The translations under genes were made by a program, and so were the position numbers. Positions 3,966 to 29,185 of a stretch of 64,000 nt of DNA are shown here, piece after piece (the stretch's first letter is position 1; every line of letters begins with the position of its first letter). This DNA is from a virus (lineage: Duplodnaviria > Heunggongvirae > Uroviricota > Caudoviricetes): the IMG/VR virus record IMGVR_UViG_3300050026_000241. One strand, 5' to 3'. The notes beneath the pieces were generated by a model that ran no database searches, was not told the DNA's origin, and saw nothing but the letters and a program-made list of their open reading frames with translations.

Positions 3966-3968
3966 GGA

Positions 3969-6623: not shown

Positions 6624-6776
6624 GATGTTCGATACCAGGGTAGACGAACCTGAATGGCAACACGGCTTTGCCGTCTGTCCGCAATGCAATCACACATGGG
6701 TCTGTTCGGTGCAAGTTGGCGAGGCCCCGGAGTGTCCGGTGTGCCACGAGAAGGGCGAATTGAGAGGGTCATCGTG
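6624..6776 (+). CDS. small zinc-ribbon protein
   Basis: 50-aa ORF with CPQC...CPVC pairs; not in ORF track (<60 aa); coordinates approximate. Confidence 0.35.
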
Positions 6777-7749: not shown

Positions 7750-8516
7750 TGGTGAAGTATCAACTGCTGAACATGGATTGCCTTGAGTGGCTGCCGAGCA
7801 TCGAGACCGAGATCGACACGCTTTTCGCGGACCCGCCCGATAATTTGAATCTGGCCTACGACAGCTACAAAGACAAGCTGACCAAGGACCAGTACGTCGG
7901 CATGTTGCAACAGTGGCTCTGCATGTTCGTCGCCAAAGCCCGGACGGTCTGGTTCTCGTACAACGCTAAGTGGTCGTTCGAGGTAGGCCGAATTGTCTGT
8001 GCCCTCCAAGAGTCCTACGGCAAGGGCATCGAATGCAAACCGTGCGTCCAAACCTTTACCTTCGGGCAACACTGCCACTTTGATCTTGGCAACAACCATC
8101 GGCCGTTGCTCCGCATTCAGAAGGCGGGCGCGCCGCTGTACCCGGACGCCATCCGTGTGCCGTCGTGGCGGCAAGAGCACGGCGACAAGCGGGCTGACCC
8201 TCGTGGCAGAGTCCCAGGTGATGTTTTTGATGTTCCTCGCGTGACAGGCAACAGTAAGCAACGCAGAAGTTGGCATCCAACTCAGTTGGGTGAGACGCTG
8301 GTCGAACGCTGCGTAAAGTTCACCACCCCTCCGGGTGGAATGGTTGTCGATCCATTCGCCGGCACCGGCACGACGCTCAGAGTGTGTAAACGTCTTGGCT
8401 TCAACTGTGTCACGACCGAGATCGACAAGACGTATTGTGAGAACATTGCCAAGGAAAACGATCTTGCCCGGTCGGAATACTGCCACCGAGCCGTGTGGGG
8501 GAGCGAGGTAATATGA
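7749..8516 (+). CDS. DNA N6-adenine/N4-cytosine methyltransferase (beta-class)
   Basis: motif IV FADPPDN precedes motif I VVDPFAGTGTT. Confidence 0.8.
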   Translation: MVKYQLLNMDCLEWLPSIETEIDTLFADPPDNLNLAYDSYKDKLTKDQYVGMLQQWLCMFVAKARTVWFSYNAKWSFEVGRIVCALQESYGKGIECKPCVQTFTFGQHCHFDLGNNHRPLLRIQKAGAPLYPDAIRVPSWRQEHGDKRADPRGRVPGDVFDVPRVTGNSKQRRSWHPTQLGETLVERCVKFTTPPGGMVVDPFAGTGTTLRVCKRLGFNCVTTEIDKTYCENIAKENDLARSEYCHRAVWGSEVI

Positions 8517-9262
8517 GATACTTACTCATCTTACTGATCTTTCTTGTCGGCTGCGAGGCCCCGGCCGAGACGCCCGCCCCGCTGCCGGTCGTGGTCGTAG
8601 AGCCTGCCTGGACGCACTACGCCCCTGTCCGAACGGTGCGAGACAGGGGACCAGTGTTGGACGACATTGACTCACATCTGCCCGCTGGCAACGTCTACAC
8701 ACGCGAATCTGACCCCGTTACGGCGTGCCACGAGGGTACTCACGGTGTCAACAGCGACTTGCGGCAAGCCTATCACAAGGCAGGGTTCTATGTCCTGAAC
8801 GACCGGGCCGTCTTGATCGACAACCCGGTCATTACGCTAACGGCCGTGGCCCGTGAGGTTCCGGCCAGCCTACGGGGTTTCAACTATCGGCTGTATTTCG
8901 TCCAACAACTTGCCGACTGGAATGAGCATCCGACATACCCCTTTGACGAGTGGTGTGCTTACACTAACGGAGCGGAAGCCCGGCTGCGGCGGAACATCCC
9001 CGACAGAGACGACACGGTTCAATTCGCCTTAGAATTCGTACCATATAGTATCTGTGTCGCCAAGGCGGCACATGACGCCGGGCTGCCGGATGACCCTCAA
9101 ATGAAAGCGTTCATTCAGTGGCAGGCCGAGCGGTGCATTCGGCTGGGAGGCGAAATTAAGCAACCTCTGCCGAACATGACGGCGGCCGATGCCGCCAGCT
9201 TCCGCGACTTTTGCCACCTTTACTTTGGTGCCCCTTGGACCCTCAAGAATCTAGGTTTCTAA
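8513..9262 (+). CDS. lipoprotein
   Basis: MRYLLILLIFLVGC signal peptide with lipobox. Confidence 0.55.
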   Translation: MRYLLILLIFLVGCEAPAETPAPLPVVVVEPAWTHYAPVRTVRDRGPVLDDIDSHLPAGNVYTRESDPVTACHEGTHGVNSDLRQAYHKAGFYVLNDRAVLIDNPVITLTAVAREVPASLRGFNYRLYFVQQLADWNEHPTYPFDEWCAYTNGAEARLRRNIPDRDDTVQFALEFVPYSICVAKAAHDAGLPDDPQMKAFIQWQAERCIRLGGEIKQPLPNMTAADAASFRDFCHLYFGAPWTLKNLGF

Positions 9263-9530: not shown

Positions 9531-9854
9531 ATGGGCACAATGATTTGCACACGTTGCAACGGCACCGGCTTTCTCAACCTTGAGCAAGTCGATAAAAAGA
9601 CCCTAGCACGGTTTGAAGAAACCGGCGACCCCGGCATAATACTGGCCTGGATCGACGACCGAGACATAAAGGCGGCAGAGTGCGGCGGCTGTTACTGCGC
9701 TGCAACAAGAAGGCCGCCGTGTTCCTACTGTACTGACTTTGCCCACGACGTAAGCCCCTGCGATTGCTGCGGTAACGGAGAGCCCTGGGGCTGGTACTTT
9801 CTCCCTGGCTTACATAATTGGGACGACCCAAACGACCCGAAAGGATGCAGATAA
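9531..9854 (+). CDS. Cys-rich hypothetical protein
   Basis: CTRCNGTG, CGGCYC, CSYC, CDCCGNG clusters. Confidence 0.45.
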   Translation: MGTMICTRCNGTGFLNLEQVDKKTLARFEETGDPGIILAWIDDRDIKAAECGGCYCAATRRPPCSYCTDFAHDVSPCDCCGNGEPWGWYFLPGLHNWDDPNDPKGCR

Positions 9855-10045
9855 TGCTTCTTGATGAAGTCCTGTTAAACGACCGGCAAGTCCGGCCACG
9901 ACAAAAGTTCGACGGCTACGCCCACAACGAGACTGAGGCTGCCGTCGCCGCCCGTCTCGCTGTCTTGGAGGCCCGAGACCCTTCACAGAAGAGGCCGACG
10001 CCGAAGCGGAACGCCAACGCCAACGTCGATTGGATTGACCTATGA
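9845..10045 (+). CDS. hypothetical protein
   Basis: ATG inside track ORF 9818..10045. Confidence 0.35.
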   Translation: MQIMLLDEVLLNDRQVRPRQKFDGYAHNETEAAVAARLAVLEARDPSQKRPTPKRNANANVDWIDL

Positions 10046-10212
10046 GGTTACATGTGGAGAACCATTTGAAATACGTCACCAACTACAAAGCGGCCCTGGA
10101 TGAAGTGCTAGGAAGGCTGTCGCTTCCTTACGCCGATCTGGTGTCGGCTGCTGAACCGTCGTCTGTTTCACTTACCCCGTTCGAGTCCTTAGAAATTGGA
10201 GAGTTCGCATGA
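10042..10212 (+). CDS. hypothetical protein
   Basis: 56-aa ORF with ATGA overlaps at both ends; not in track; approximate. Confidence 0.25.
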   Translation: MRLHVENHLKYVTNYKAALDEVLGRLSLPYADLVSAAEPSSVSLTPFESLEIGEFA

Positions 10213-10433
10213 GTCAAGACTTTATTGGACGAGCCATCGCGGCCGGAAACACCATTGTCTATCCTGTCCGTCGTGGCAGCAAAATGTGGCTGAACAAGTT
10301 GGCCGTCACGCAAGTCGATGACGACCATATCACCGGGTTCAACAGCGACGGCCGCCGTATCACGGTGAAAAATCTCAAGAATTGCGTCGTGGTTGAACCG
10401 CTGCCCGTCGTGGACGGCGCTGCCGGCCTGTAA
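10209..10433 (+). CDS. hypothetical protein
   Basis: 74-aa ORF. Confidence 0.4.
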   Translation: MSQDFIGRAIAAGNTIVYPVRRGSKMWLNKLAVTQVDDDHITGFNSDGRRITVKNLKNCVVVEPLPVVDGAAGL

Positions 10434-14626: not shown

Positions 14627-15242
14627 AATTATCACAGTCGAGCAATTCAAGGTGTTGCTGGACTACGACATTGCCGAGAAAATAGCCAATGACCGGCTAG
14701 CCCGCTTAGAGACGCTCAACAACAGAGTCAGCATGTTGGCCGTGTTATACACGGAGCTGTGCCGCAGGCTGTATGTCGAGTGTGAGGATGCCAGGGAGAT
14801 TGTCGAAGCGACAGAGAACCCGCAGGCAACAGCCTACGTTGAGTACGTGTCCCATTACGACGCTTCCAATGTGGTCTACGATCTGATGCAGGAAGCAACG
14901 AAAGAAGCCAATACGGAAGCAAGCTATCTCGCCTGGTTCAAAACAATGACGTTTGACCCCGCATACAAGGCGGCGATAGAATTGATTAAAGGTAAGAGGG
15001 ACGAAGGGACGAAGGGTGAAACAGTGCAAGATATAACGCTAAACGAAGATATAACGGACGCAGCCGAAGATATAACGGACGCAGCCGAAGAAGCCTTAAT
15101 TGAGGAAGTTAAAGGTCTTGACGCCGATGACTTGCTCGATGCTTGCGAGCATGTCCTTGGATTAAATCATCCAGCGACAAAGGCACTGCGTTTTGAAGTT
15201 GAGCGCATCAATGGTGAACATGAAACACCGGGGAGTCTCTAA
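14616..15242 (+). CDS. hypothetical protein, paralog pair member 2
   Basis: TENPQATAYVEYVSHYDASNVVYDLMQEATKE; internal repeat EDITDAAEx2. Confidence 0.5.
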   Translation: MLIEIITVEQFKVLLDYDIAEKIANDRLARLETLNNRVSMLAVLYTELCRRLYVECEDAREIVEATENPQATAYVEYVSHYDASNVVYDLMQEATKEANTEASYLAWFKTMTFDPAYKAAIELIKGKRDEGTKGETVQDITLNEDITDAAEDITDAAEEALIEEVKGLDADDLLDACEHVLGLNHPATKALRFEVERINGEHETPGSL

Positions 15243-16087
15243 TGTGGTTGAATCTATCAACAACCTTTCCCTCTGCTCCGGTGGTGGCGGGCTCGACATC
15301 GGACTTGAACTCGCTCTCGGAGCGGTTCGCACGGTCTGTTGGGTGGAGTGGGAAGCCTTTGCCATCGAGTACATTGCGAAAGCGATGGAAAACGGCGGCT
15401 TGGATAAAGCACCTATTTGGACTGACGTGCGCACTTTCGACGGACGACCCTGGTGTGGCGTCGTGGATAGCATCACTGCGGGCTACCCGTGTCAACCGTT
15501 CAGCTATGCGGGTGACAGACATGGACAGGATGATCCTCGTCACCTGTGGCCACACGTCGCTCGAATCGTTGGCGAAATTAAACCCACACTCGTCTTTCTC
15601 GAAAACGTGTCAGGACACCTTACCCTTGGGTACGATCAAGTCGCTGCCGATCTTGACAAACTGGATTACACAGTTGCGACAGGACTCTTCACAACGTCAG
15701 AAGTTGGCGGAAGCCAAAAACGAGAGCGGCTTTTCACTGTGGCCTGCGCCGGCCGCGACCATGACAACAGGCGAAGACAAGGATGCGAGCTGGGTTCCCG
15801 GTCAGAAGCCGACACGGTGGGGGAAAGTAGTACAAACAGCGTTGACCACCTGTGCCAAGATTTGGATGCGGGACTACCTCTCTTCCCTCCGCGACCGGAC
15901 GACTATGAAACCTGGACCGCCCTGCTCAAAGACACCCAAAACCAAAGGCTCGCCCCTGCGCTTGAACCCGACCTTCACTGGCTGGCTGATGGGATGGCCG
16001 AACTTCGGTTGCACGGCAACGGAGTGGTCCCGCTACAAGCAGCGTATGCGTTCTGCTCTCTGTGGTCTGTTTTGCGAAACGAAGTAG
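15220..16087 (+). pseudogene. DNA (cytosine-5)-methyltransferase split across two reading frames
   Basis: frame of 15220: motif I LSLCSGGGGLD, motif IV GYPCQPFSYAG, motif VI ENV, motif VIII QKRERLF; frame of 15242 downstream: TRD LWPAPAATMTTGEDKD and motif IX-like RLNPTFTGWLMGWPNFG; switch at T4 run ~15731-15734. Confidence 0.55.
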
Positions 16088-16091
16088 CCAC

Positions 16092-17018
16092 ATGAACATC
16101 TTCTACAAACATCCGAGAAGCGGTATGGTTGTTTGGCCCGCTGACTGGACCGACCGCCACTTCAACTGTAATGAACCCTGTGACGTGCTCATCGGTGCGT
16201 GCTCTTGTGGAGCATGGCACAATGAAAACGAAGAATGGGTGCGCCAGATTTTACTCGACCACAACGCAATCATCCTAGAAAGACCTGACATGCCTCTCTA
16301 TTGTCCGAATTGCCGCTCGCAACTCGACCCCACGAATGCCGTTAAGCAGCATATTAGCTGCGCCATGTGCTTCTGGATGGGTATGCTCAAGGACTGCCTC
16401 AAGGAGCTGCCGTCGCGCATCGGGATGCCGTATGTATCTATTGATTTAGAGACAACCGGCCTGAACCCTGATTATTGCCAGCTTCTTGAGATCGGTGCGG
16501 TATACGACGACGGCAGATTCATTGACGAATTACCGGTCTTCCATAAGTACGTCTACAGTCCTGACGGCCGCTATACTGGCGAACCATTCGCCCTGCAAAT
16601 GAATGCAAAAATCTTAAAGCGGCTGTCGAGCATTTCCGAGGCCGATAAACAGAACAAGGTGTGCGTGCGGCCGGATGAAGTGGCCGAGTGTTTCCGTCAA
16701 TGGTTAATTGAAGCCTGTGGGTGGGACGGTAAAACCTGTATCACCCCGGCCGGCAAGAACTTTGCCAGCTTCGACAAGCAGTTTCTCTACCGACTCCCCG
16801 GCTGGACCGAGAAAGTGAAGCTGAACCATAGGACGCTGGACCCGGCCATGCTCTGGTGGAACCCGTTGACGGACGACAGGCTGCCAGGCAGTCAAGAGTG
16901 CATGGACCGCGCCGGGCTCAAGGGCACCGTTGCCCACACCGCCGTCGAAGATGCGGAAGTTGTAGTCAGGCTTATCCGGTTGGCAGTCAGGCAGGGGCGA
17001 GTCAAGTGGAGCGATTAA
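16092..17018 (+). CDS. DEDDh 3'-5' exonuclease (DnaQ-like) with Cys-rich N-terminal domain
   Basis: Exo I VSIDLETTGL; Exo II GKNFASFD; Exo III HTAVEDA. Confidence 0.7.
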   Translation: MNIFYKHPRSGMVVWPADWTDRHFNCNEPCDVLIGACSCGAWHNENEEWVRQILLDHNAIILERPDMPLYCPNCRSQLDPTNAVKQHISCAMCFWMGMLKDCLKELPSRIGMPYVSIDLETTGLNPDYCQLLEIGAVYDDGRFIDELPVFHKYVYSPDGRYTGEPFALQMNAKILKRLSSISEADKQNKVCVRPDEVAECFRQWLIEACGWDGKTCITPAGKNFASFDKQFLYRLPGWTEKVKLNHRTLDPAMLWWNPLTDDRLPGSQECMDRAGLKGTVAHTAVEDAEVVVRLIRLAVRQGRVKWSD

Positions 17019-17653: not shown

Positions 17654-17913
17654 TAGTCGAATCCCTGCTTTTCCTTATTGTTGTGCTGCTGGGCCTGTTG
17701 CTCTACAAGGCCGGTATTGTGGAGGCCCCTTCCGAGGGGCGTGAGACACTAAACCGGCTGGACTACGACCGAGAGGCCGTGAAGCTGGCCGCCGAAGAGG
17801 CCGCTGCCAAAGAAGCCGAGCAGGCCCGTTTGAAGCACGACCTTGAGTGTGCTTCCCACGAATCGCCGGCCGCCAAGAAGGCCCGCACCGCGCGAAAACC
17901 GAAAAATTCGTAA
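17650..17913 (+). CDS. small membrane-anchored protein
   Basis: N-terminal TM LLFLIVVLLGLLLY, charged helical tail. Confidence 0.45.
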   Translation: MIVESLLFLIVVLLGLLLYKAGIVEAPSEGRETLNRLDYDREAVKLAAEEAAAKEAEQARLKHDLECASHESPAAKKARTARKPKNS

Positions 17914-17935
17914 GAGCGCGCACAACTCGCGCCCG

Positions 17936-17954
17936 TTTTACGACTCTCTATGTG
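17936..17954 (+). promoter_or_regulatory. T7-like single-subunit RNAP promoter candidate
   Basis: TTTTACGACTCTCTATGTG vs T7 TAATACGACTCACTATAGG; same element recurs at ~23029. Confidence 0.45.
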
Positions 17955-17997
17955 AACACCGTTTACATTCCATTCGTTTGAACCCGGAGAAAGTACC

Positions 17998-18255
17998 ATG
18001 TCCGAAAGCATCATGCAGAAGGTCAAAGACGCCGCCAAGTCGGGCTTGACCGCCGTTGAAACCGCCCTGGGCTTCGCCAAGGCCGAAGGCCAGAAGGTTG
18101 CCGCCGCCGCCACGACGGTCGTGACGACCGACGCCCCCGCCGTACAGGCCGCCATCAAGGCCGGTGAGACCGCTGCCGTCGCCGTCGCGCAGAGCGCCAC
18201 GGCCGCCGTTCAGCAAGTCGCCGCCACCGGTGCCCCGGCACCCGCCGCAAGCTGA
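17998..18255 (+). CDS. Ala-rich small protein
   Basis: 85 aa, ~35% Ala; follows T7-like promoter motif at ~17936. Confidence 0.5.
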   Translation: MSESIMQKVKDAAKSGLTAVETALGFAKAEGQKVAAAATTVVTTDAPAVQAAIKAGETAAVAVAQSATAAVQQVAATGAPAPAAS

Positions 18256-18282
18256 TCGTATCCCGAAGTCGGTTTTCCCGGC

Positions 18283-18310
18283 TTGACTTCTGCGGAATAG
18301 CCGGTATACT
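18283..18310 (+). promoter_or_regulatory. sigma70-like promoter cassette (orphan; drives hairpin transcript)
   Basis: TTGACT-N16-cGgTATACT; no ORF before next cassette at 18432. Confidence 0.45.
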
Positions 18311-18312
18311 TC

Positions 18313-18395
18313 AATACGGCTTCGTAGTTGAGACGAAGATGTCGGGGACAGACAAAAAGTGTGTCAACATAACACCGTCCTTTTTGTCTGTCCCT
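18313..18395 (+). ncRNA. candidate short structured transcript (orphan promoter + 15-bp stem-loop)
   Basis: stem GGGACAGACAAAAAG (~18345-18359) pairs with CTTTTTGTCTGTCCC (~18380-18394), 20-nt loop. Confidence 0.3.
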
Positions 18396-18431
18396 GTGGG
18401 GAACAACTAAGTGGGGGCCAAGGATTTTCAC

Positions 18432-18459
18432 TTGACTTCTACGAAAAAGGTGGTATGAT
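18432..18459 (+). promoter_or_regulatory. sigma70-like promoter cassette
   Basis: TTGACT-N16-TGgTATGAT; ATG 18466 leaderless. Confidence 0.6.
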
Positions 18460-18465
18460 TGAGAT

Positions 18466-18711
18466 ATGAAGACTGTCACCTTAACCGAAGCCGAAGCCAG
18501 ACGTGTTTACGAGCTTCTCGGCGGCTCGTGTCCGTTGGACCCGCTTGAGCAACGTATGGCCGACAAAATAGCCAGAGTGTTACTGTGCGTAACGCCGTAC
18601 CCAAAGCGGCCGGCAGCGCGTCGGGCATATCCAGGCGACCCGATACGTGGCGACCCGATACGTGGCAACCTCACCGACAAAGTAACGGAGTCATTACATG
18701 GCATCAACTGA
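18466..18711 (+). CDS. hypothetical protein, paralog pair member 1
   Basis: cassette promoter, leaderless; LTEAEARRVYELL...MADKIAR; GDPIRGDPIRG from 15-nt tandem repeat. Confidence 0.45.
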   Translation: MKTVTLTEAEARRVYELLGGSCPLDPLEQRMADKIARVLLCVTPYPKRPAARRAYPGDPIRGDPIRGNLTDKVTESLHGIN

Positions 18712-18874
18712 CATCGACGGCTCGACCATCGTGATACTGTCCGAGGCGGAAGCCGTGCGGGTGTACGAACACTTATGCAACATTTCCGCCAACTGGACGT
18801 TCGACAAACTGGACCACCAGATTGCCGACAAACTCTCCCGCGACCTTAACCTTCCACCACTTGGCCAGGATTGA
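18698..18874 (+). CDS. hypothetical protein, paralog pair member 2
   Basis: LSEAEAVRVYEHL...IADKLSR; 58 aa, not in track; approximate. Confidence 0.35.
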   Translation: MASTDIDGSTIVILSEAEAVRVYEHLCNISANWTFDKLDHQIADKLSRDLNLPPLGQD

Positions 18875-18877
18875 ATC

Positions 18878-19147
18878 ATGCAGATCGTAAGATTGTCCGA
18901 ACGCAACCTATTGTCCCTTCTTCACAAGATGGTCATGCCGGGCAGCGCCCGCGAGATCATCAAGTGGAGCGAAGATCAGCCGGGCGTGCCGTCCGAGCAA
19001 GTCGCCATCCGTGTCGCCACCGACGACGAAGTGTACGGCGCTCGCCGGCCCGGCGAAATGCACCCTGAGACGGAAAGTTTCATTGCCTACCTGCGTGTGC
19101 AAGTCGCCAGAATCACCGCCGAAATGTACCCGAGTGAGCAGCAATGA
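18878..19147 (+). CDS. hypothetical protein
   Basis: 89-aa ORF. Confidence 0.45.
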   Translation: MQIVRLSERNLLSLLHKMVMPGSAREIIKWSEDQPGVPSEQVAIRVATDDEVYGARRPGEMHPETESFIAYLRVQVARITAEMYPSEQQ

Positions 19148-19248
19148 GTTGGGACCAGTGGTTCAATCTTGGTTTCAGCATCTTCCTGATCGCCGTGTTC
19201 CTGTACGGCGATTACTTGAACCGGCGTTGGTATAAGAAGCATCCCTAA
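19144..19248 (+). CDS. very small TM protein
   Basis: 34 aa; ATGA overlap; approximate. Confidence 0.25.
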   Translation: MSWDQWFNLGFSIFLIAVFLYGDYLNRRWYKKHP

Positions 19249-19267
19249 CCCACAGGCAACAGTAATC

Positions 19268-19804
19268 ATGGATACGTATTTTCGTGCTTCCAGCGTTCAA
19301 CCCGAGCTTCTTCCTCTTGACAAAGAGTATGGCGACTTGTTGGAGGGTATTGACGACAATGCTGCAAGCACCGGCGTCGATGCAGACTACGCGAGGCATC
19401 CTTACAGACCTGATGGCACACAGTGGTCCGAAACCGTCGCAAAATACCTTGGTTTCACGATAATGGAATCATTGGCCACCTGTTTCGACGGCTCTGGCTG
19501 TGTCATTCTTAGTCGGTGTGAAAAGTCCATCTTCGTTCCTGAGACACACCCGGCAAGACGTTTCAAGTTCCTGTCGGTTCTATCTATCAGCTACGAGGAA
19601 GACATTATCGTAGCAATACGCGACGAGGCCGCTCTGCTTCAATACTATCGGCTGATAGAGTCGTTCCTTCGTCTCACGACGGACAATAGTTTCCAAGACA
19701 CCACCCGAGGTCCGAGCAAAGGTGGCTGGGACCAGGGCAGGAATTGGAAAGCTATTGCCGATAGCCGCAAAGCCTACTTTGACGCCCACCCAGATCAGAA
19801 GTAA
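19268..19804 (+). CDS. hypothetical protein
   Basis: 178-aa ORF. Confidence 0.5.
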   Translation: MDTYFRASSVQPELLPLDKEYGDLLEGIDDNAASTGVDADYARHPYRPDGTQWSETVAKYLGFTIMESLATCFDGSGCVILSRCEKSIFVPETHPARRFKFLSVLSISYEEDIIVAIRDEAALLQYYRLIESFLRLTTDNSFQDTTRGPSKGGWDQGRNWKAIADSRKAYFDAHPDQK

Positions 19805-19819
19805 CCAAAGGAAGTAACC

Positions 19820-20005
19820 ATGAGACCTTTCCTTGAGACTTTCGGCTACGGTGCCATAATCATCCTTCTGCTACTCGGTATGCAAGGTGGCGGGCAGACT
19901 GTGGGTCAATTCATCGTGTCGATGGGTTGCCTCTTCCTATTTGGGGCTGTAGCCCGGTTCCTGGTTGAACTCGGCAAGGACTTCTACCGTTTGTTGAAGG
20001 GGTAA
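19820..20005 (+). CDS. small membrane protein
   Basis: two hydrophobic segments. Confidence 0.4.
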   Translation: MRPFLETFGYGAIIILLLLGMQGGGQTVGQFIVSMGCLFLFGAVARFLVELGKDFYRLLKG

Positions 20006-20006
20006 C

Positions 20007-20144
20007 ATGCGTCGGTTTCAAGAGGTTTGTGTCTGGACGATGTTCACCATCGGCCTCGCACTGTTGTCAATTCGCCTTTGGCCGGTCGTCCTGGTAGGGC
20101 TTCTGGCCTACGGCATTGTTAGCTGCAAACTGTGGAGAAAGTGA
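20007..20144 (+). CDS. small membrane protein
   Basis: 45 aa, hydrophobic; approximate. Confidence 0.3.
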   Translation: MRRFQEVCVWTMFTIGLALLSIRLWPVVLVGLLAYGIVSCKLWRK

Positions 20145-20257
20145 TGGACGCCGCCTACTACATTCATCACTTTCTCGTCGGCTTCCTCTCCCTTGTCGTC
20201 GTAACCGAGAAGATTTGTTACGCCGTCGAAACCTACATTAAGGACAACTATCCATGA
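20145..20257 (+). CDS. small membrane protein
   Basis: 37 aa; ATGA overlaps both sides; approximate. Confidence 0.3.
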
Positions 20258-20703
20258 GTGACACTGTGAACGAACTCTTCAACATCGCGCCGATGGACTT
20301 TGAGCCGGGCCTAATGGAAATCACTGTACCGGGCCGCGAGCCTTTCATAAGGAAAATTCTTGGCGGTGGCGGTGACGGCGTGTTTCCCATGCGATACGCG
20401 CAGCACTTGATCGCCCTCGAATTCGGCGTCAAGGACGAGGAAGTGGGATTCAATCTGCCAGTATACGACAACGAGGAAGATGCCGCAATTTGCAGCTTTA
20501 TTCAAGACGTAGTGTACGGCGTCTGGCAGTTTGGCAACCCCGGCGACTGGTGCCGGGCCGACATCGACGACCCACCGGCCGACTACAATCTGATCGACAC
20601 GCCGCCCGTTTTGGTGTGGTCCACTGTGGAGGCCGCACAGGGCTTCATTGATGCCGCCGAAGCGTGGGCACCCCGCGAGATTCGTCCTTACACGAAGTCG
20701 TAA
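20254..20703 (+). CDS. hypothetical acidic protein
   Basis: 149-aa ORF. Confidence 0.5.
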   Translation: MSDTVNELFNIAPMDFEPGLMEITVPGREPFIRKILGGGGDGVFPMRYAQHLIALEFGVKDEEVGFNLPVYDNEEDAAICSFIQDVVYGVWQFGNPGDWCRADIDDPPADYNLIDTPPVLVWSTVEAAQGFIDAAEAWAPREIRPYTKS

Positions 20704-20758
20704 TCATGGGCTGGTGCGGTGGTGGAGAACTTGCCGCAAAACGCAAGAGGAAATAACT

Positions 20759-21376
20759 ATGATAAATGAAGTGCCTGACGCGCTGTTTCCAACAGATGGA
20801 AATGAGTGGGATATTCCTTCACTTTATCTGCCATTGCAGGCGGATTTTGTCGATTTGCCTGTGCGTGGCTGGGGTTCCATCAAACGGAAAACCACCATGC
20901 GCGGGACTTGGCACTTCTACGTGGACGATTATAAGTTCTCGGCCATTTGGAAAACACCTGATGTGATTATTAAGACAGCAGCCGTGTCAGTCGTGGAAGT
21001 CAACTTTACCACGGAAGACCTGATGCCAAGGGCGGTCGGCCTCTACCGCACGATGCAAAAGCGATGGCTGGCCCGGTACTGGCAGAGTCAAGGACTGCGT
21101 GTGTTCGTAGACCTTAACGTCGCCAAAAAGTTCGACGAAATCAACCTGTTGGGCGTGCCGAAGGGCTGGAAGTCATTTGCCACCAGCGGGGCTGACTACG
21201 CTATCGACCGACTGGAAACTCAGTGGGCGATAGCAAATAACGTCGCCAACGGTAATGGTCCGATCATTTTCCTCGTCTACGGCGGCGGCTTGAAAGTCGC
21301 CAAGATATGCGCCGAGCGCGGCTGGGTATTCATACCCGACGCTCGCAATGCAGCAAGGGAGGCACCTGATGCCTAA
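20759..21376 (+). CDS. hypothetical protein
   Basis: ATG inside track ORF 20648..21376. Confidence 0.5.
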   Translation: MINEVPDALFPTDGNEWDIPSLYLPLQADFVDLPVRGWGSIKRKTTMRGTWHFYVDDYKFSAIWKTPDVIIKTAAVSVVEVNFTTEDLMPRAVGLYRTMQKRWLARYWQSQGLRVFVDLNVAKKFDEINLLGVPKGWKSFATSGADYAIDRLETQWAIANNVANGNGPIIFLVYGGGLKVAKICAERGWVFIPDARNAAREAPDA

Positions 21377-21941
21377 AGAGGGCGGCGGTGGCCGTAGTTC
21401 GGGCGGCGGTGGCCGCAAGGGCCGTGACCGATTCAGTGGCGGTGGTGGCGGCCCAATGTCGCCACAGGATGCCGAGAAGCTGATGCAGCAGCTTGGCGTT
21501 CATGCGGTCAACCTTGCTATGATGAAAGCAGACGGTACGCTGGGTGAGGTTGGTGCGATGATGCCCCCTGGCACAAAGCTGCTGGGGCAAGGGGCCGAGG
21601 CCGTGGCCTTTCGTCTGCCGGACGGCACGGTTTTACGAGTGCAGAACATGGTGCCAGTGGCCAGGCCCAACATCGGCGTAATGACGCAGCCGATGTCAGT
21701 GACAAAGATCGGTAACACGACAGTCGAGCGTCTGCCATACGTACAACCGGCGAGCAGCATGTCAAATGCGATGCAGGCAGAGGGTAAGAGTTACCTTGAA
21801 TCACACATGCCTGCTAGCTACTACGGCGAGGATTTGCACGCCGGTAACTACGGTAAAACAAGCGGCGGACAGTGGCAAGCCTTCGATCCGGGTGCTATCC
21901 AGCCCAAGGTTCCTGGCTTTACTTATTGGCAAACACAATGA
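21369..21941 (+). CDS. hypothetical protein with Gly/Arg-rich N-terminus
   Basis: GGGGRSSGGGGRKGRDRFSGGGGG. Confidence 0.5.
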   Translation: MPKEGGGGRSSGGGGRKGRDRFSGGGGGPMSPQDAEKLMQQLGVHAVNLAMMKADGTLGEVGAMMPPGTKLLGQGAEAVAFRLPDGTVLRVQNMVPVARPNIGVMTQPMSVTKIGNTTVERLPYVQPASSMSNAMQAEGKSYLESHMPASYYGEDLHAGNYGKTSGGQWQAFDPGAIQPKVPGFTYWQTQ

Positions 21942-22096
21942 ATAACCGAGACGAGCAGCGCAAAGAACTTGAGAAGCTAGGTGTTAGTAATTTTCCGAGA
22001 GATCGTTCAAATCGGCGTCGAACTTCTCTGCCGTGAAGGTGCGCCGCCGCGCGAATATAGGAGAACAGTCACTAACATGCGCGACGGTAAACCCGC

Positions 22097-22501
22097 ATGA
22101 AACTATTTTTCATCAAGCGAACGGATACGGGTCAATATCTTGAGTGGCAACGCATCGTGCCGCGATGGACCACGCGCGAAAACGCCACCATCCATCGCAG
22201 TCACGCTTTTGCCGCCGACACGGCCGACACAATCTCGTCAAACGACAACATTCCTGTCAAGGTTGAAACCTACGACCTTGACGCCGGGCAGGAAGCCTTA
22301 CAGATTCTCGCAACTCTGGAGAACATTCAACACCTTGGCGATTACGTCTACGACATACGAGAGCGGGAGGGGCTAGGCTGGGACGGCCCGAAGGTCGCGG
22401 CCTGGGGTGGTGCGAGTGCGCGAGCCGAACAACTGGTAAGACCGTTGATAGCCAAGACGATGCTTGCGGAGGCAGACGATGAAACACTACTTGATTCGTG
22501 A
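22097..22501 (+). CDS. hypothetical protein
   Basis: 134-aa ORF. Confidence 0.5.
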   Translation: MKLFFIKRTDTGQYLEWQRIVPRWTTRENATIHRSHAFAADTADTISSNDNIPVKVETYDLDAGQEALQILATLENIQHLGDYVYDIREREGLGWDGPKVAAWGGASARAEQLVRPLIAKTMLAEADDETLLDS

Positions 22502-22736
22502 CAATTACGTCGGCCTGTGCCTACAGGTCAACGGCTGGGGCAAAGACGCCCTGATATTTTCCGACCACGGTGCCGCCGTCCAAGCGTTGGCCGACGCCCG
22601 AGATTCTGACTACTATCGTCGGCAACACGCCGACGCTATCCAACTTGTACCACTGCCGGAGAAAGAAAATGTGCGACAACGTACCTTCCACCCCCGAAAC
22701 ATCGGACTCCCCCGACGCCCCACCGGCCACACCTAA
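22479..22736 (+). CDS. hypothetical protein
   Basis: overlaps next gene by ~67 nt; end uncertain. Confidence 0.3.
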   Translation: MKHYLIRDNYVGLCLQVNGWGKDALIFSDHGAAVQALADARDSDYYRRQHADAIQLVPLPEKENVRQRTFHPRNIGLPRRPTGHT

Positions 22737-22998
22737 GCAGCCGGTCTTGCAAAAGCTGATCGCCTACGGCACCGGTGCGCTGGCCCTGGCCCTGGTCGCC
22801 GCCTCAACCGGGTCGGCAATCACTTACGCCATCATGCACGGTCAAGACACCTTATCTCAGCTTGGCATGTCCGTGCTGAATGGCATAGGAATTGCTGTTG
22901 GCGGCTGTTTGGGAAGTGCTTTGGTGCTTCGCTTCAAGGCGGCCCGGCGTTTCGTGAATGGCGTCGTCCGCGACGTTCACGACCACCATTTCAAATAA
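22669..22998 (+). CDS. membrane protein
   Basis: GGAGAAAGAAAATG RBS; TM stretches. Confidence 0.45.
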   Translation: MCDNVPSTPETSDSPDAPPATPKQPVLQKLIAYGTGALALALVAASTGSAITYAIMHGQDTLSQLGMSVLNGIGIAVGGCLGSALVLRFKAARRFVNGVVRDVHDHHFK

Positions 22999-23028
22999 TT
23001 TTCTGACCGCGCGCACAACCAACTTCCG

Positions 23029-23047
23029 TTTTACGACTCTCTATGTG
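23029..23047 (+). promoter_or_regulatory. T7-like single-subunit RNAP promoter candidate
   Basis: TTTTACGACTCTCTATGTGGAGG; ATG 23063 16 nt downstream; shares ~40-nt upstream context with 17936 copy. Confidence 0.45.
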
Positions 23048-23062
23048 GAGGAAAGTTGCGAA

Positions 23063-23329
23063 ATGAGAGAGACCGAACTACTGAATGCCCTGGCACTTAG
23101 CAAGCCCGGCATCGAGATTCGCATGTGCAAAGGGCACAAAGTCTCGGTGCGGATGCGCGGCGAGCCCTTAGTGTGCGGCATCGGCACGACGCTTATGGAA
23201 GCCGCCATTGACTGTGCCCACTGGGTTTTCGACGTGTGTGCTGACCGCCCCGAGTTGGAAGAAAAGATTCCCGAAGTCCTGGCCGCTTTGTGTGCCTATG
23301 ACGAACATTCACAGGGTTTACAACTATGA
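23063..23329 (+). CDS. hypothetical protein
   Basis: ATG 16 nt after T7-like promoter motif ending ~23047. Confidence 0.45.
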   Translation: MRETELLNALALSKPGIEIRMCKGHKVSVRMRGEPLVCGIGTTLMEAAIDCAHWVFDVCADRPELEEKIPEVLAALCAYDEHSQGLQL

Positions 23330-23430
23330 ACGCCACCGACCGGTTGTTGGCACTTTTGGCTTTTGGCGTGCTGATGGGCTTTGCGCTTTGCACGGCCACC
23401 GCCATGCTCATTGCACTGTTCACCCGATAA
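23326..23430 (+). CDS. very small TM protein
   Basis: 34 aa; approximate. Confidence 0.25.
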   Translation: MNATDRLLALLAFGVLMGFALCTATAMLIALFTR

Positions 23431-23447
23431 CCCATACGACACGAACT

Positions 23448-24194
23448 ATGAATGACAGCATTGGCGACCGATTCAAGAACAATTATGAGGCCCCCGCGCG
23501 TCACCTACTGACCCGCAGGACGCCCGTAATCGTGCGCATTGACGGTCGTGCCTTCCACACCTTCACCCGCGACTTCCTCAAGCCGTTCGACCGTGAGTTA
23601 ATCAACATGATGGTGTTGTCGGCCATGCACGTCTTTGGCGAAATGCAGGGCTGCAAGATAGCTTACGTCCAGTCGGACGAGGCCAGCTTCGTGTTGACCG
23701 ACTACGACACTTTCGACACGCAGCCTTGGTTCGGCTACGTCAAAAGCAAGGTGGAAAGTGTCGCGGCGTCCTGCATGACGGCTGCGTTCGCACGTTGCCA
23801 GCATCTTGCGGGTGGGCGGTACGCCGACTCACTGGCGACATTTGACGCCCGTGCCTTCAACATCCCCAGGAATGAGGTAGTAAACTACTTCGTGTGGCGG
23901 GCGAAGGACTGGGCGCGCAACAGCTTGTCGATGTACTGCCAGTCGATCTTCTCTCACCGCGAGTTGCAGGGCAGGAACTCCAAGGCCATGCACGAAATGC
24001 TGTTTGCGAAAGGCCGTAACTGGACACGCGACCTTTGCAACGCCGAGAAGAATGGGACGTTCTTGATTGCCCCGAAAGAGGCCGTGGCCGCGAATTCCGA
24101 CATCGAACCAAGATACGGCGACATTGATGCCGTATGGGAAGCCGTTCGACCAAAAGAGGCCGTCACTACCGCAATCGAAATCGTAAGCGAATAA
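23448..24194 (+). CDS. Thg1-like protein (tRNA-His guanylyltransferase family, 3'-5' nucleotidyltransferase)
   Basis: N-terminal VIVRIDGRAFHTFT matches Thg1/TLP signature. Confidence 0.65.
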   Translation: MNDSIGDRFKNNYEAPARHLLTRRTPVIVRIDGRAFHTFTRDFLKPFDRELINMMVLSAMHVFGEMQGCKIAYVQSDEASFVLTDYDTFDTQPWFGYVKSKVESVAASCMTAAFARCQHLAGGRYADSLATFDARAFNIPRNEVVNYFVWRAKDWARNSLSMYCQSIFSHRELQGRNSKAMHEMLFAKGRNWTRDLCNAEKNGTFLIAPKEAVAANSDIEPRYGDIDAVWEAVRPKEAVTTAIEIVSE

Positions 24195-26387: not shown

Positions 26388-27779
26388 TCAAATGACCAAG
26401 CCAATACCTAGAACAACCCCGCAATCGGCTTTTGCCACTATCCAGGGCGACTTGTCGCCATATTGGAATGACAAGTGCCGCGCGTTGCAATCGCGCCTCT
26501 GGTGCCCAACCGAGAATGATTGCAAAGTGTTGTTCGATTCTTCGGAGTTCATTGAGCGTGTTGCCTCACCGTCTGCCGGAGATTTGTGCCCGTCGTTTGT
26601 ACTTCCCGCTCTATCTGGCGAGCGACCCAAGGAAAAGGAAGTTAGCCGTAAGATAAGGCTCTATCCGAAGAACTTGGAGAAGTGGGAGGAATGTTTGTGG
26701 GCGGCTCGTCGGGCCTACAACCTCGCTATTGAGGCTTTCAAGGAATGGAAGAAGGATGTGCCGAGCGAGGCAGATAACCAATCCGCCTTTCGCCGCTCAA
26801 TCCGTGAAAAGGTAGCGGCTGAATTTCCCGGTGTGCCGCGCGTAATGCTTGACGAAGCGGTCAACAGCGCTTACCTCACACGGCAAGCCATCATTAAGAA
26901 AAGATCGCAAGGTGAGCAATGCGACTTTTCCTTCCGTTGCCGGAAGGACACGAAGCAATCGTTTGTAGTTGAGAGGCTTGCGAACGGTGGGCCGTTTCCA
27001 ACCTTTCTGAAATGCCATCTTACCGAGGCGATTCCGAGCGAATCTGCCGGGAAAATGGCGGTTGTTGTGCGAGAGCATGGTAGATGGTTTCTGACGTGTA
27101 AGGTCAAGGTGCCGGTTGCTGCCGAGAGCCAAGGTAGGAAAACCGTCGCTTGCGACCCCGGCGTAAGAACTTTTCTCGCTACCTACTCTCTTAGTGATTG
27201 TGCGTTTATCGGCCACGGCTTTGCCGCCAAGATACGACCAATGCTCTTGCAGCTTGATAAGTTGCTTGGGCGGCGGAAGTGCTTGAGCAACATCAAGGAA
27301 TGGAAGCAATGTCACCGGGATAGGAACCGTAACTTGCAAAAGCGAATCGACTCGATCTTTTGCAAGGTGCAAGACTTGATGGACGATCTGCACCGGCGTG
27401 CGGCCGATTTTCTCACAAAGAACTTCGACGTGATTTTGCTTCCGACATTTGAGACTTCCGAAATGGTTTCCAAGAGCGCACGCAAAATTGGTAGCCGCTC
27501 CGTCCGGTCGATGCTATCCCTTGGTCACTATCGCTTCAAGCAATTCCTGATTTGGTCGGCCTACAAGCGTGGCAAGATCATAGTGGATTGCAGCGAAGCG
27601 TGGACCACATGCACCGACTCCCGAAGCGGTGTGATTATTGATGTTGGTTCAAGGGAATGGATCAACGGACTTCACAGGGATGTAAACGGCTCGCGGGGTA
27701 TTTTCCTCCGAGCGATGGCGGCTTGAGCCCGAAACATCCCCAGCAAACGCTACAAAATGTTGCGTTTGTTGCGTTTCAA
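26364..27779 (+). mobile_element. TnpB-only transposon-like unit bounded by inverted repeats
   Basis: left TTGAACGCAACAAACGCAACAT (~26364-26385) vs right ATGTTGCGTTTGTTGCGTTTCAA (~27757-27779), 22/23 match; tnpB fills the interval. Confidence 0.5.
26392..27726 (+). CDS. tnpB: TnpB-like RuvC-fold nuclease (IS200/IS605 OrfB family)
   Basis: RKIRLYPKNLEKWEECLWAARRAYN; RuvC-I KTVACDPGVRTF; RuvC-II LLPTFETSEM; RuvC-III HRDVNGSRGI; zinc finger degenerate. Confidence 0.75.
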   Translation: MTKPIPRTTPQSAFATIQGDLSPYWNDKCRALQSRLWCPTENDCKVLFDSSEFIERVASPSAGDLCPSFVLPALSGERPKEKEVSRKIRLYPKNLEKWEECLWAARRAYNLAIEAFKEWKKDVPSEADNQSAFRRSIREKVAAEFPGVPRVMLDEAVNSAYLTRQAIIKKRSQGEQCDFSFRCRKDTKQSFVVERLANGGPFPTFLKCHLTEAIPSESAGKMAVVVREHGRWFLTCKVKVPVAAESQGRKTVACDPGVRTFLATYSLSDCAFIGHGFAAKIRPMLLQLDKLLGRRKCLSNIKEWKQCHRDRNRNLQKRIDSIFCKVQDLMDDLHRRAADFLTKNFDVILLPTFETSEMVSKSARKIGSRSVRSMLSLGHYRFKQFLIWSAYKRGKIIVDCSEAWTTCTDSRSGVIIDVGSREWINGLHRDVNGSRGIFLRAMAA

Positions 27780-28015: not shown

Positions 28016-28540
28016 ATGAGCAAAACCAAACAAAAGGACCGCAAAATGTTCCAAAATAGAATCCCCGGCAACAAGCCCCGCGCCTCATACGCTAATCGCA
28101 CCCGGCGAGAGAAAGTCATAGGTGCTTTGGTACTCGGCGGTGCGATCTTCATGGCTGGCTTCGTGGCTGGCTACGACTGTAAGAACACCCCGACAGCCCC
28201 GGCTACCCCAACCGACCCAGCAGGCCCGACCACGACACCGGCTACCCCGCCGTCTGCCATCGTGCCGGCCACAAGCCGCCCCGGCGTCCCGTCGATTCAG
28301 CTTGCCCCGATGCCCAAACTGGCTGCCGATCTGGCACCCCTCCCGAAAGTAGCAGTCGCACAGGCCCGGGACGACATGGCCCCGGCACCCAAGGTAGCCG
28401 CCCCGGCACCTAAGACGGTCGAGAAGACGGTCGAGAAGACGGTCGAGAAGACGGTCGAGAAGACGGTCGAGAAGACGCCTGCCAAGGCCGCCAAGCCCAA
28501 GAGCACGGCCGCCCCTGCCGCTTTGGGCGGAAAGAGTTGA
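28016..28540 (+). CDS. single-pass membrane protein with Pro/Ala/Thr-rich region and (KTVE)x5 repeat
   Basis: basic N-terminus, TM IGALVLGGAIFMAGFVAGY, 12-nt tandem repeat gtcgagaagacg x5. Confidence 0.5.
   Translation: MSKTKQKDRKMFQNRIPGNKPRASYANRTRREKVIGALVLGGAIFMAGFVAGYDCKNTPTAPATPTDPAGPTTTPATPPSAIVPATSRPGVPSIQLAPMPKLAADLAPLPKVAVAQARDDMAPAPKVAAPAPKTVEKTVEKTVEKTVEKTVEKTPAKAAKPKSTAAPAALGGKS
28415..28476 (+). repeat. 12-nt tandem repeat GTCGAGAAGACG x5 (coding, KTVE x5)
   Basis: seen directly. Confidence 0.8.
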
Positions 28541-28547: not shown

Positions 28548-28575
28548 TCGACTTCTGCGAATTGCCGTGTATAAT
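28548..28575 (+). promoter_or_regulatory. sigma70-like promoter cassette (variant -35 TCGACT)
   Basis: TCGACT-N16-TGtTATAAT; leader to sigma factor gene ATG 28601. Confidence 0.5.
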
Positions 28576-28600: not shown

Positions 28601-29185
28601 ATGATGCTTCAACTGCAAGATGAAGAACTCTTTTTGCTCTACAAGACGACTCGTAACAACGAATACTTCACCACCGTCTACAATCGCCAGGTGGGTCGGG
28701 TTCGTCACTACCTGATGCGTCTCATGCCGGCATCTGGCGGCTGCATCCATAGCAGTTACATCGACGACCTAATCCAGCTAGTCTTCACCGACCTGGTCGG
28801 ACACGACAGCTTCAAGAAGAGCACGCTGCTTAACTACCTTCTTGAGCGAGCCAAGTGGCATTGCCTGGACCTGCGCCGACACCTGACCGCCAAGAAGCGG
28901 GCCACATCTATGCCGGAAGTTGAAATCAGCGAGACCGACAGCATTACCACCATCACACCGTTAGACGACCTGTGCGAGAAAGAGTCGCGCGAGGTTCTCC
29001 GAGACATGGTCGAGCGTTTGCCCGAAATTGAGCGAAATATCATACAACTTCTGCTGAACGGCCACAGTAAGAGCAAAATCGCCAAGGTTTTGAGCATTAG
29101 CCCTCGTAAATTCCTCACCCGTTACAACTTCGCCCTTCGGTTGTTGAAAATCATGGCCCACAGCAGAGAGCTAACCGTCGCATGA
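28601..29185 (+). CDS. sigma-70 family (ECF-like) RNA polymerase sigma factor
   Basis: region 4 HTH LPEIERNIIQLLLNGHSKSKIAKVLSISPRKFLTRYNFALRLLK; region-2-like LIQLVFTDLVGHDSF. Confidence 0.6.
   Translation: MMLQLQDEELFLLYKTTRNNEYFTTVYNRQVGRVRHYLMRLMPASGGCIHSSYIDDLIQLVFTDLVGHDSFKKSTLLNYLLERAKWHCLDLRRHLTAKKRATSMPEVEISETDSITTITPLDDLCEKESREVLRDMVERLPEIERNIIQLLLNGHSKSKIAKVLSISPRKFLTRYNFALRLLKIMAHSRELTVA

What the first reader, a model, noticed from the sequence alone, without database searches (positions are those of the whole stretch)
17920..23062. Two copies of a motif nearly identical to the T7 RNA polymerase promoter
TTTTACGACTCTCTATGTG occurs at ~17936 and ~23029 and matches the T7 class III promoter TAATACGACTCACTATAGG at 17 of 23 positions, including the ACGACTC and CTAT core. 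Both copies sit in the same ~40-nt context, CGCGCACAAC...CCGTTTTACGACTCTCTATGTG, and lie immediately upstream of genes. The first is a small Ala-rich protein at 17998. For the second, the ATG at 23063 is 16 nt downstream and the transcript would begin with GGAGGA. This implies the phage uses a T7-like single-subunit RNAP, encoded elsewhere in the genome because no RNAP gene lies in this window, alongside the many host-sigma70 promoters. The window also carries its own ECF-like sigma factor. That would make three layers of transcriptional control.
Basis: partly seen in the sequence, partly recalled or inferred. Interest (0 to 1): 0.8.

Follow-up and report, generated by a model that had tools for sequence, protein, structure and literature searches.

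The report
Phage sigma-factor promoter resembling T7's
The repeated T7-promoter look-alike is real, but it is most likely a two-part promoter read by the host RNA polymerase carrying a sigma factor encoded by this large uncultivated phage, not by a T7-type polymerase.

Summary
The exact 19-mer occurs at 17936 and 23029. A third copy lies 2.5 kb upstream of the window, and 36 distinct copies occur in related peat and bog phage contigs. All copies are intergenic and point the same way as the gene just downstream. The consensus core matches the T7 class III promoter at 18 of 23 positions.

The element is larger than a T7 promoter, however. It has an A/T tract, a fixed block GCGCGCACAA, a variable spacer, and then the core. 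At the same gene positions in sister phage lineages the promoter reads GAAAAC-N17-CAACTCT or GAAAAC-N17-CGTCTCTCT. The T7-like "TATAGGGAGA" half is lost there. This is the ECF sigma promoter layout: AAC-type -35, 17-nt spacer, CGxC -10.

The phage encodes an ECF sigma in the window (28601-29185), behind a sigma70-type early promoter. Relatives also carry a second sigma next to the DNA polymerase gene. No T7-like polymerase was found in the 72.6 kb of contiguous sequence held, nor in about 3 Mb of other fetched DNA, mostly from relatives. The genome is incomplete, so one cannot be excluded.

Verdict: a phage sigma-dependent middle/late promoter. The T7 likeness is probably coincidental.

The parts
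17901..17909 (+). A/T tract (GAAAAATTC) upstream of copy 1, UP-element-like; overlaps the end of the upstream ORF (stop codon at 17911-17913)
   Evidence: Positions -33 to -28 relative to the core are A/T in most of the 36 distinct sites. A similar RAAWTYCGR tract precedes the -35 box of the window's sigma70-type promoters.
17916..17925 (+). -35-like block GCGCGCACAA of copy 1
   Evidence: The block is near-invariant at a fixed distance (10 nt before TTTT) in the 36 distinct sites.
17936..17958 (+). Core of copy 1, TTTTACGACTCTCTATGTGAACA. The inferred -10 element is CGAC(TCT) at 17941-17947. The transcription start is inferred near 17951-17955.
   Evidence: The -10 and start assignments are inferred from the xxxxAC-N17-CGAC geometry.
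17998..18255 (+). First gene after copy 1: an 85-aa Ala-rich protein with no family match
22992..23003 (+). A/T tract (CAAATAATTTTC) upstream of copy 2; overlaps the stop codon of ORF 22570-22998
23009..23018 (+). -35-like block GCGCGCACAA of copy 2
23029..23051 (+). Core of copy 2, TTTTACGACTCTCTATGTGGAGG. The inferred -10 element CGAC is at 23034-23037. GGAGG doubles as the ribosome-binding site.
23063..23329 (+). First gene after copy 2: an 88-aa protein with no family match
23208..24194 (+). Thg1-like tRNA-His guanylyltransferase ORF in the copy-2 operon (true start uncertain)
   Evidence: Pfam PF04446, E = 3.5e-27.
28548..28575 (+). Sigma70-type promoter (TCGACT-N16-TATAAT) in front of the phage ECF sigma gene
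28601..29185 (+). Phage ECF-type sigma factor, called 'sigma-W' in this report; a candidate reader of the motif
   Evidence: NCBIfam TIGR02937 (sigma70-ECF) scores 44.5 bits against a cut-off of 42.9, E = 1.2e-11, covering both sigma2 and sigma4. The best PDB profile hit is ECF SigK. PHROG families annotate it as RNA polymerase sigma factor.

Best explanation
The motif is a bipartite promoter read by the host multi-subunit RNA polymerase carrying a phage-encoded sigma factor. It is not a T7-type promoter.

Full element (about 55 nt): an A/T tract, about 5 nt, caGCGCGCACAAc (-35 region), 8 variable nt, then cG-TTTTACGACTCTCTATG-TGGAGA. Read as an ECF-type promoter it is gCGCAC-N17-CGAC(TCT). 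Transcription would start a few bases downstream, near the G's of TGTGGAG, so GGAGA serves as the first transcribed bases and often as the ribosome-binding site.

Proposed programme:
- Host sigma70-type promoters drive the early arm, including the ECF sigma gene at 28601-29185.
- The phage sigma then redirects host core polymerase to these promoters.
- These are the only recognisable promoters in the replication and DNA-modification arm, and one also sits inside the tail module.

Shown: the repeat, its architecture, its variants at orthologous sites, the two sigma genes, and the sigma70-type promoter on the window's sigma gene.

Inferred: that it is a promoter at all, the start site, and which sigma reads it. 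The candidates are the window's ECF sigma ('sigma-W'), slightly preferred, and the pan-lineage sigma next to the DNA polymerase ('sigma-P').
For: 1. Architecture. In 36 distinct sites the -35-like block GCGCGCACAA is near-invariant at a fixed 10 nt before the core, preceded by an A/T tract. The 8 nt between block and core vary.

2. Orthologous sites in sister lineages carry other versions of the same geometry.
- L188/L189 type: GAAAAC-N17-CAACTCT-N5(variable)-TGG, 10 sites.
- L197 type: (G)AAAAC-N17-CGTCTCTCTTAGTGGAG, 4 sites, of which 3 show the upstream AAAACCAG block.
- The switch of type is seen at three orthologous positions: upstream of the ligase gene, at the equivalent of window ~10,000, and upstream of the 1112-aa tail gene.

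3. AAC-type -35 elements and CGAC/CGTC/CGTA -10 elements are the documented ECF rule in B. subtilis (PMC5758882).

4. The window encodes an ECF sigma above the curated NCBIfam cut-off, behind a sigma70-type promoter. A phage whose sigma is only 51% identical carries the identical motif 3.5 kb upstream of that gene.

5. A second sigma sits beside the DNA polymerase gene in all relatives examined. It is only 50-54% identical between promoter types, whereas the polymerase is about 80% identical.

6. The replication arm has no sigma70-type sites: 0 in 20 kb of L188 and none on the coding strand of L103. The early arm has more than 40.

7. Both promoter classes share an AAWTYCGR tract just upstream of their -35 position. 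This fits a single core enzyme reading both.

8. No T7 RNA polymerase homologue was found in 1.73 Mb plus 1.23 Mb of fetched loci, mostly from relatives.
Against: - There are no transcript data. The promoter function and the start site are inferred.
- The 18/23 identity to T7 is unlikely by chance (about 1e-7 in one register). It includes the positions that determine T7 specificity, -12 to -7.
- The conserved downstream block (about 25 nt) is much longer than a normal -10 element.
- No orthologue of the window's ECF sigma was detected in the lineages with variant promoters. Their early arms could not be reached, however.
- The head and packaging part of the genome was never seen, so a polymerase gene could be hiding there.
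- The sequence counts for the core are biased, because the relatives were found by exact match to 17 nt of it.
Confidence: 0.8

Rival explanations
1. One reading: a promoter for a T7-like single-subunit RNA polymerase encoded elsewhere in the genome.
For: The consensus matches T7 class III at 18/23, in the functional register: AT-rich -17 to -13, identical ACGACTC at -13 to -7, TAT, then GGAGA. All copies are near-invariant, as T7 class III promoters are. Only part of the genome of perhaps 150-200 kb has been seen.
Against: A -35-like block and an A/T tract are conserved at fixed spacing upstream, which T7-type promoters lack. Orthologous promoters in sister lineages lose the TATA/GGGAGA half, falling to 12-14 of 23. 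The position aligned to T7 +1 is T, not G. No homologue of T7 polymerase appears in the 72.6 kb of contiguous sequence held or in about 3 Mb of fetched loci, mostly from relatives. The phage has two sigma genes of its own.
Confidence: 0.05
2. A promoter for a host alternative (ECF) sigma factor that the phage exploits, rather than for a phage sigma.
For: The architecture is ECF-like. Polymerase homologues of this phage group are binned with Planctomycetota genomes. By my own knowledge, that phylum encodes many ECF sigmas.
Against: No copy with the proper context exists in one genome each of 185,579 species; the 23 hits are coding or chance matches. The promoter type switches between closely related phages at orthologous sites, which fits a co-evolving phage factor better. 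The phage carries its own sigmas.
Confidence: 0.06
3. Not a promoter: a repeated binding site for a regulator, a recombination hot spot between gene cassettes, or a conserved 5'-UTR RNA element.
For: The element is extremely invariant. It marks gene-cassette differences between relatives: for example, a promoter plus a small gene is present in L083 but absent at window ~10,045-10,209.
Against: There is no consistent RNA fold (z-scores -2.3, +0.4, +1.3) and no Rfam match. The element is always intergenic, co-oriented with and 10-100 nt upstream of a start codon. The two blocks have -35/-10 spacing.
Confidence: 0.04

Closest known systems
T7 class III promoter (TAATACGACTCACTATAGGGAGA) and other Autographiviridae single-subunit polymerase promoters
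   Same: 18/23 identical to the consensus. By my recollection of the T3 sequence, that is as close to T7 as the T3 promoter is (17/23). It shares an AT-rich 5' end, ACGACTC, TAT, GGAGA, near-invariant copies and a position just upstream of genes.
   Different: It has additional conserved upstream blocks (-35-like block and A/T tract). T7 +1 aligns to T. Relatives do not conserve the melting and initiation half. No cognate polymerase gene was found. The genome is a large phage of a different kind, with contigs of 113-196 kb, a DNA polymerase A, a tape-measure tail module and two sigma genes.
ECF (group 4) sigma promoters, e.g. B. subtilis sigmaX (tGtAAC-N17-CGAC), sigmaW (TGAAAC-N16-CGTA) and sigmaM/V (CGTC) (PMC5758882 for the elements; the spacings are from my own knowledge)
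   Same: Two blocks with a 17-nt spacing. The -10 tetranucleotide is CGAC (window type), CGTC (L197 type) or CAAC (L188/L189 type). The -35 ends in AAC or CAC. Degeneracy is low. An ECF sigma is encoded by the same element.
   Different: The window-type -35 is GCGCAC rather than GGAAC/GAAAC. The conserved -10 side runs on for about 20 nt (TTTT...CTCTATGTGGAGA). The sigma gene is not preceded by its own promoter type, and no anti-sigma gene was seen.
Phage sigma cascades: Bacillus phage SPO1 gp28 and gp33/34 (PMC13401047 abstract), and phiEco32 / 7-11 ECF-like sigma (PMC5333181)
   Same: Strong host-sigma early promoters on an array of small genes, followed by phage-encoded sigma(s) that redirect host core polymerase to middle and late promoters.
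   Different: The promoter sequences are unrelated. The phage ECF promoters described in PMC5333181 have an extended -10 and no recognisable -35, whereas these have a strong -35 block. The host is probably a planctomycete, and the lineage has no relative in GenBank phages.

Membership tests
T7-type single-subunit RNA polymerase promoter | Contiguous consensus of about 23 bp (-17 to +6) resembling the T7/T3/SP6 group | tested here: met
   16, 17 and 18 of 23 identities for the three copies in this genome.
T7-type single-subunit RNA polymerase promoter | A cognate single-subunit polymerase gene in the same genome | tested here: inconclusive
   None in the window, in L073, or in about 3 Mb of fetched loci, mostly from relatives. 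The head and packaging region and part of the genome were never seen.
T7-type single-subunit RNA polymerase promoter | No sequence requirement upstream of about -17 to -22 | tested here: not met
   GCGCGCACAA and an A/T tract are conserved at fixed distance in the 36 sites. A corresponding block, GAAAACCAG, is conserved in sister lineages.
T7-type single-subunit RNA polymerase promoter | Conserved -7 to +1 (CACTATAG-like) melting and initiation region across related phages, with G at +1 | tested here: not met
   In L188/L189-type promoters the 5 nt after ACTCT vary (ttctt, taatg, ctagg and others). The position aligned to T7 +1 is T in all window-type sites.
ECF sigma-dependent promoter | A cognate ECF sigma (sigma2 plus sigma4 only) encoded by the element | tested here: met
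   Window 28601-29185: TIGR02937 scores 44.5 bits against a cut-off of 42.9. The best PDB profile hit is ECF SigK.
ECF sigma-dependent promoter | Bipartite -35/-10 with a rigid spacing of 16-17 nt | tested here: met
   xxxxAC-N17-CGAC / CAAC / CGTC in three lineages, with invariant spacing.
ECF sigma-dependent promoter | AAC in the -35 and CGT/CGxC in the -10 | tested here: inconclusive
   L197 type: AAAAC with CGTC, canonical. L188 type: GAAAAC with CAAC. Window type: GCGCAC (CAC, not AAC) with CGAC, as in sigmaX (PMC5758882).
ECF sigma-dependent promoter | Transcription from the site depends on that sigma | not testable with these tools
   This needs in vitro transcription or 5'-end mapping. 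Two candidate sigmas (window sigma-W, polymerase-adjacent sigma-P) cannot be told apart by sequence alone.
ECF sigma-dependent promoter | Autoregulatory promoter in front of the sigma gene, and a co-encoded anti-sigma | tested here: not met
   The window's sigma gene has a sigma70-type promoter. No anti-sigma family was found among its neighbours. This feature is typical of cellular ECF systems and is not required for a phage timing switch.

The most novel reading that the evidence does not exclude
The T7 likeness is not a coincidence. The lineage has a diverged single-subunit polymerase in the unseen part of the genome. That polymerase needs a sigma-like specificity factor bound to the upstream GCGCGCACAA block, giving a two-component system like the mitochondrial polymerase with its initiation factors, here in a large planctomycete-associated phage.
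Probability: 0.04. Interest if true: 0.85.

Novelty: new member of a known kind. Interest (0 to 1): 0.4.

Why it matters
The finding gives a concrete, testable transcription programme for an uncultivated lineage of large phages from peat and wood, probably infecting Planctomycetota. Dozens of near-consensus host-type early promoters come first, followed by a phage sigma (or two) with a very stringent promoter of about 55 nt.

Sister lineages carry three distinct promoter versions at orthologous positions. That makes them a natural set of sigma/promoter pairs that have diverged together. Such pairs are useful for studying how ECF-type specificity evolves, and possibly as orthogonal expression parts.

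There is also a caution for annotation. An 18/23 match to the T7 promoter does not show that a T7-type polymerase is present.

Tried and rejected
- GenBank phages. A nucleotide search with the region and protein searches with the 513-aa ORF found nothing. The DNA polymerase found only matches below 36% identity.
- Exact-motif scan of IMG/VR. Only one true relative turned up, L065, with a 27/28-nt match.
- Scan of GTDB representative genomes. Only coding or chance hits, so there is no sign of a host-genome origin.
- Search for T7 polymerase. A motif-A regular expression and tblastn with T7 gene 1 against all fetched loci found nothing below E = 0.26.
- RNA element or terminator reading. There is no consistent fold, the hairpin in copy 1 is not conserved, and Rfam gives no match.
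- Weaker extra copies in the window. None of either block was found.
- Sigma-W orthologue in the variant-promoter lineage. The IMG/VR contig ends just past an IscB-like gene, and the profile found nothing.
- Unbiased window-type polymerase locus. The look-up of P0002 returned no DNA.
- Pfam on all early-arm proteins. No families matched.
- De novo promoter discovery in more distant relatives (L198, L201, L207, L211, L216, L219). No clear motif emerged.
Full report
**Observation**

The 19-mer TTTTACGACTCTCTATGTG occurs exactly twice in the window, at 17936 and 23029. Both copies are on the + strand, nothing else matches within 3 mismatches, and none is expected by chance. Both copies share GCGCGCACAAC-N6-CCG upstream and sit in short intergenic gaps. 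Copy 1 lies 44 nt before an 85-aa Ala-rich ORF. Copy 2 lies 15 nt before an ATG at 23063 that opens an operon with a Thg1-like gene.

Identity to the T7 class III consensus is 16/23 for copy 1 and 17/23 for copy 2. It is 18/23 for a third copy found 2.5 kb upstream of the window, on a Logan contig of the same phage (L073 position 6109). The chance of at least 17/23 in one register is about 1e-6.

**Context**

The window is part of a large phage genome.
- Nearly all genes are on the + strand.
- There are many DNA methyltransferases, a radical SAM enzyme, a Thg1-like enzyme, an exonuclease and a TnpB-like gene. No structural genes are present, and no ORF exceeds 513 aa.
- Positions 38-63 kb hold more than 40 near-identical sigma70-type promoters (CTTGACTTCT-N8-CACATGGTATGATTGAG), each before a small ORF. 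This is an early arm.
- GenBank phages contain no relative.
- The poly-C at the window end is an assembly artefact. Other assemblies continue into a repeat-rich region.

**Relatives**

A 17-nt core scan of JGI metagenomes gave about 45 peat and bog contigs. Together with the window and Logan copies, 36 distinct sequences carry the motif with the same flanks. These contigs are syntenic relatives, with 70-90% protein identity to window genes.

The full consensus is an A/T tract, N5, caGCGCGCACAAc, N8 (variable), then cG-TTTTACGACTCTCTATG-TGGAGA. The flanks are unbiased by the search. The core is biased, because it was the search key.

Downstream genes include a DNA ligase, N6/N4 methyltransferases, DeoC, an SPFH protein and a 1112-aa tail protein that follows the tape-measure gene. 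The element therefore serves middle-type and late-type genes.

No copy with this context exists in the representative genomes of 185,579 species.

**The decisive comparison**

The family A DNA polymerase of a window-type relative (L103) has homologues on contigs of up to 196-444 kb. Some of these are binned as Planctomycetota. Two sister lineages are collinear with the region just upstream of the window. They are L188 (polymerase 78% identical) and L189 (81% identical).

| Lineage | Promoter | Sites |
|---|---|---|
| Window type | gCGCAC-N17-CGACTCTCTATGTGGAGA | 36 |
| L188 / L189 | A-tract ... GAAAAC-N17-CAACTCT-N5(variable)-TGG | 10 |
| L197 | (G)AAAAC-N17-CGTCTCTCTTAGTGGAG | 4 (3 show the upstream block) |

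The switch of type is seen at three orthologous positions:
- upstream of the ligase gene;
- at the equivalent of window ~10,000, where several window-type relatives have a copy that this window lacks;
- upstream of the tail gene.

Both blocks and their spacing are kept, while their sequences change together. The part that makes the window type look like T7 (CTATAG/GGGAGA) is not conserved in the sister lineages, where identity to T7 falls to 12-14 of 23.

The layout xxAAC/CAC-N17-CGxC is that of ECF sigma promoters. CGAC, CGTC and CGTA are the documented -10 elements of B. subtilis sigmaX, sigmaM/V and sigmaW, with tgaAAC-type -35 elements (PMC5758882).

**Sigma factors**

Window 28601-29185 encodes an ECF sigma, here called sigma-W.
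- TIGR02937 scores 44.5 bits against a cut-off of 42.9, covering both domains. The best PDB profile hit is ECF SigK.
- Its gene has a sigma70-type promoter, so it should be made early.
- Its family is small, with 11 proteins among 5.8 billion.
- A member only 51% identical sits 3.5 kb downstream of an identical motif.

A second sigma, here called sigma-P, is about 220 aa long. It lies 1-2 kb downstream of the DNA polymerase gene in every relative examined, just upstream of the ligase promoter.
- In L103, TIGR02937 gives E = 5e-11. The PDB profile hit to SigF is 1e-13.
- It is only 50-54% identical between window-type and L188/L189-type phages, while the polymerase is about 80% identical.
- Its sigma4 helix differs: STPTVYRLKRE in L103 versus SLATTYRLKEN in L189 and SLASTYRMKEG in L188.

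The replication arm has no sigma70-type promoter sites. There are 0 in 20 kb of L188 and none on the coding strand of L103. Sigma-P itself therefore sits in a motif-driven operon. This slightly favours a cascade: host sigma, then sigma-W, then the motif, which drives the replication genes and sigma-P. No sigma-W orthologue was seen in the variant lineages, but their early arms could not be reached. Which sigma reads the motif is unresolved.

**Against the T7 model**

- No T7-like polymerase was found in the window, in L073, or in about 3 Mb of fetched loci, mostly from relatives, around the polymerase, primase, radical SAM and tail genes.
- About 54 of the 114 kb of one relative's IMG/VR contig were inspected without finding one.
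- The head and packaging module was not seen, so absence is not proven.
- A distant single-subunit polymerase would not be expected to keep a T7-identical promoter either. SP6 matches T7 at only 11/23 (SP6 sequence from memory).

**Other readings**

- The three window-type copies share no RNA fold, and Rfam finds nothing.
- The hairpin in copy 1 is not conserved.
- Both promoter classes share an AAWTYCGR tract just upstream of their -35 position, which fits one core enzyme reading both.

**Verdict**

This is a phage sigma-dependent (ECF-type) middle/late promoter, with confidence about 0.8. The T7-type reading has a probability of about 0.05. It is a new member of a known kind of system. The T7 likeness is a striking coincidence, or at most convergence.

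Noticed in passing
window 38694-62600 (also 10692, 11731, 18282, 18431, 31613, 33511, 36143, 36489): More than 40 near-identical sigma70-type promoters (CTTGACTTCT-N8-CACATGGTATGATTGAG, extended -10). Each precedes a small ORF with no known family, with CA-rich leaders such as AACAACGCAACAGGGAGCAAC. This looks like a host-takeover-style early arm.
   Followed up: partly
window 37996-38024, 38079-38105, 43959-43985, 55963-55989; L182 2256-2284: Another repeated element of about 55 nt: ccGGtAAAatCGGAAACCGAaaaTtCAAACTTtGG-N11-CACGGTT. It lies at operon ends in the early arm and in the terminal repeat region. It could be a second phage-sigma promoter class (AAAC...CGGTT) or a terminator or regulatory site.
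   Followed up: partly
window 63820-64000: The window ends in a run of CCCCG repeats followed by pure poly-C, which is an assembly artefact. In other assemblies (L182, L185) the genome continues with a 50-nt direct repeat and arrays of CGGCACAATCGTTACGAC-like units. This may be an origin or a terminal repeat region where assemblies break.
   Followed up: partly
window 50965-51012 and 62117-62176: Tandem 12-nt repeats that multiply the -35 box just upstream of sigma70-type promoters: CGACTTGACTTT x4 and CGACTTGAGAAT x4.
   Followed up: no
window 26392-27726; L273 9995-12964: A TnpB-like ORF (Cas12f1-like TNB domain, E = 1e-4) in the window. At the syntenic place in a sister phage there is a 989-aa IscB/Cas9-like ORF with RuvC and HNH motifs. 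Different RNA-guided-nuclease-type mobile genes occupy the same spot.
   Followed up: no
window 23208-24194; L073 4496-5605: A Thg1-like tRNA-His guanylyltransferase in the motif-driven operon, and an RNA ligase a few kb upstream of the window. Together they may form a tRNA repair set.
   Followed up: no
window 736-9262, 15193-16095, 45705-46520; L073 875-6985: An unusually large set of DNA methyltransferases (N6/N4, C5, D12, MT-A70 and FkbM-type), plus a glycosyltransferase fusion at 2424-3965.
   Followed up: no
window 10045-10209 versus L083 1353-1932 (also L108, L127, L157, L239): Relatives carry a promoter-plus-small-gene cassette (the motif and a gene of about 93 aa) between the homologues of window genes 9818-10045 and 10209-10433. 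This window lacks the cassette. In L116, L114 and L136 an extra 444-aa SPFH-like gene follows copy 1.
   Followed up: partly
window 28400-28489: Five and a half tandem copies of a 12-nt unit (AAGACGGTCGAG) encode KTVE repeats, in a Pro/Ala-rich membrane-anchored protein just upstream of the sigma gene.
   Followed up: no
L103 4354-5013; L188 13460-14125; L189 13749-14414; L207 14338-15075: A second phage sigma factor (SigF/SigE-like region 2 plus region 4) is conserved next to the DNA polymerase gene throughout the phage group. In this phage it would lie roughly 15 kb upstream of the window.
   Followed up: partly
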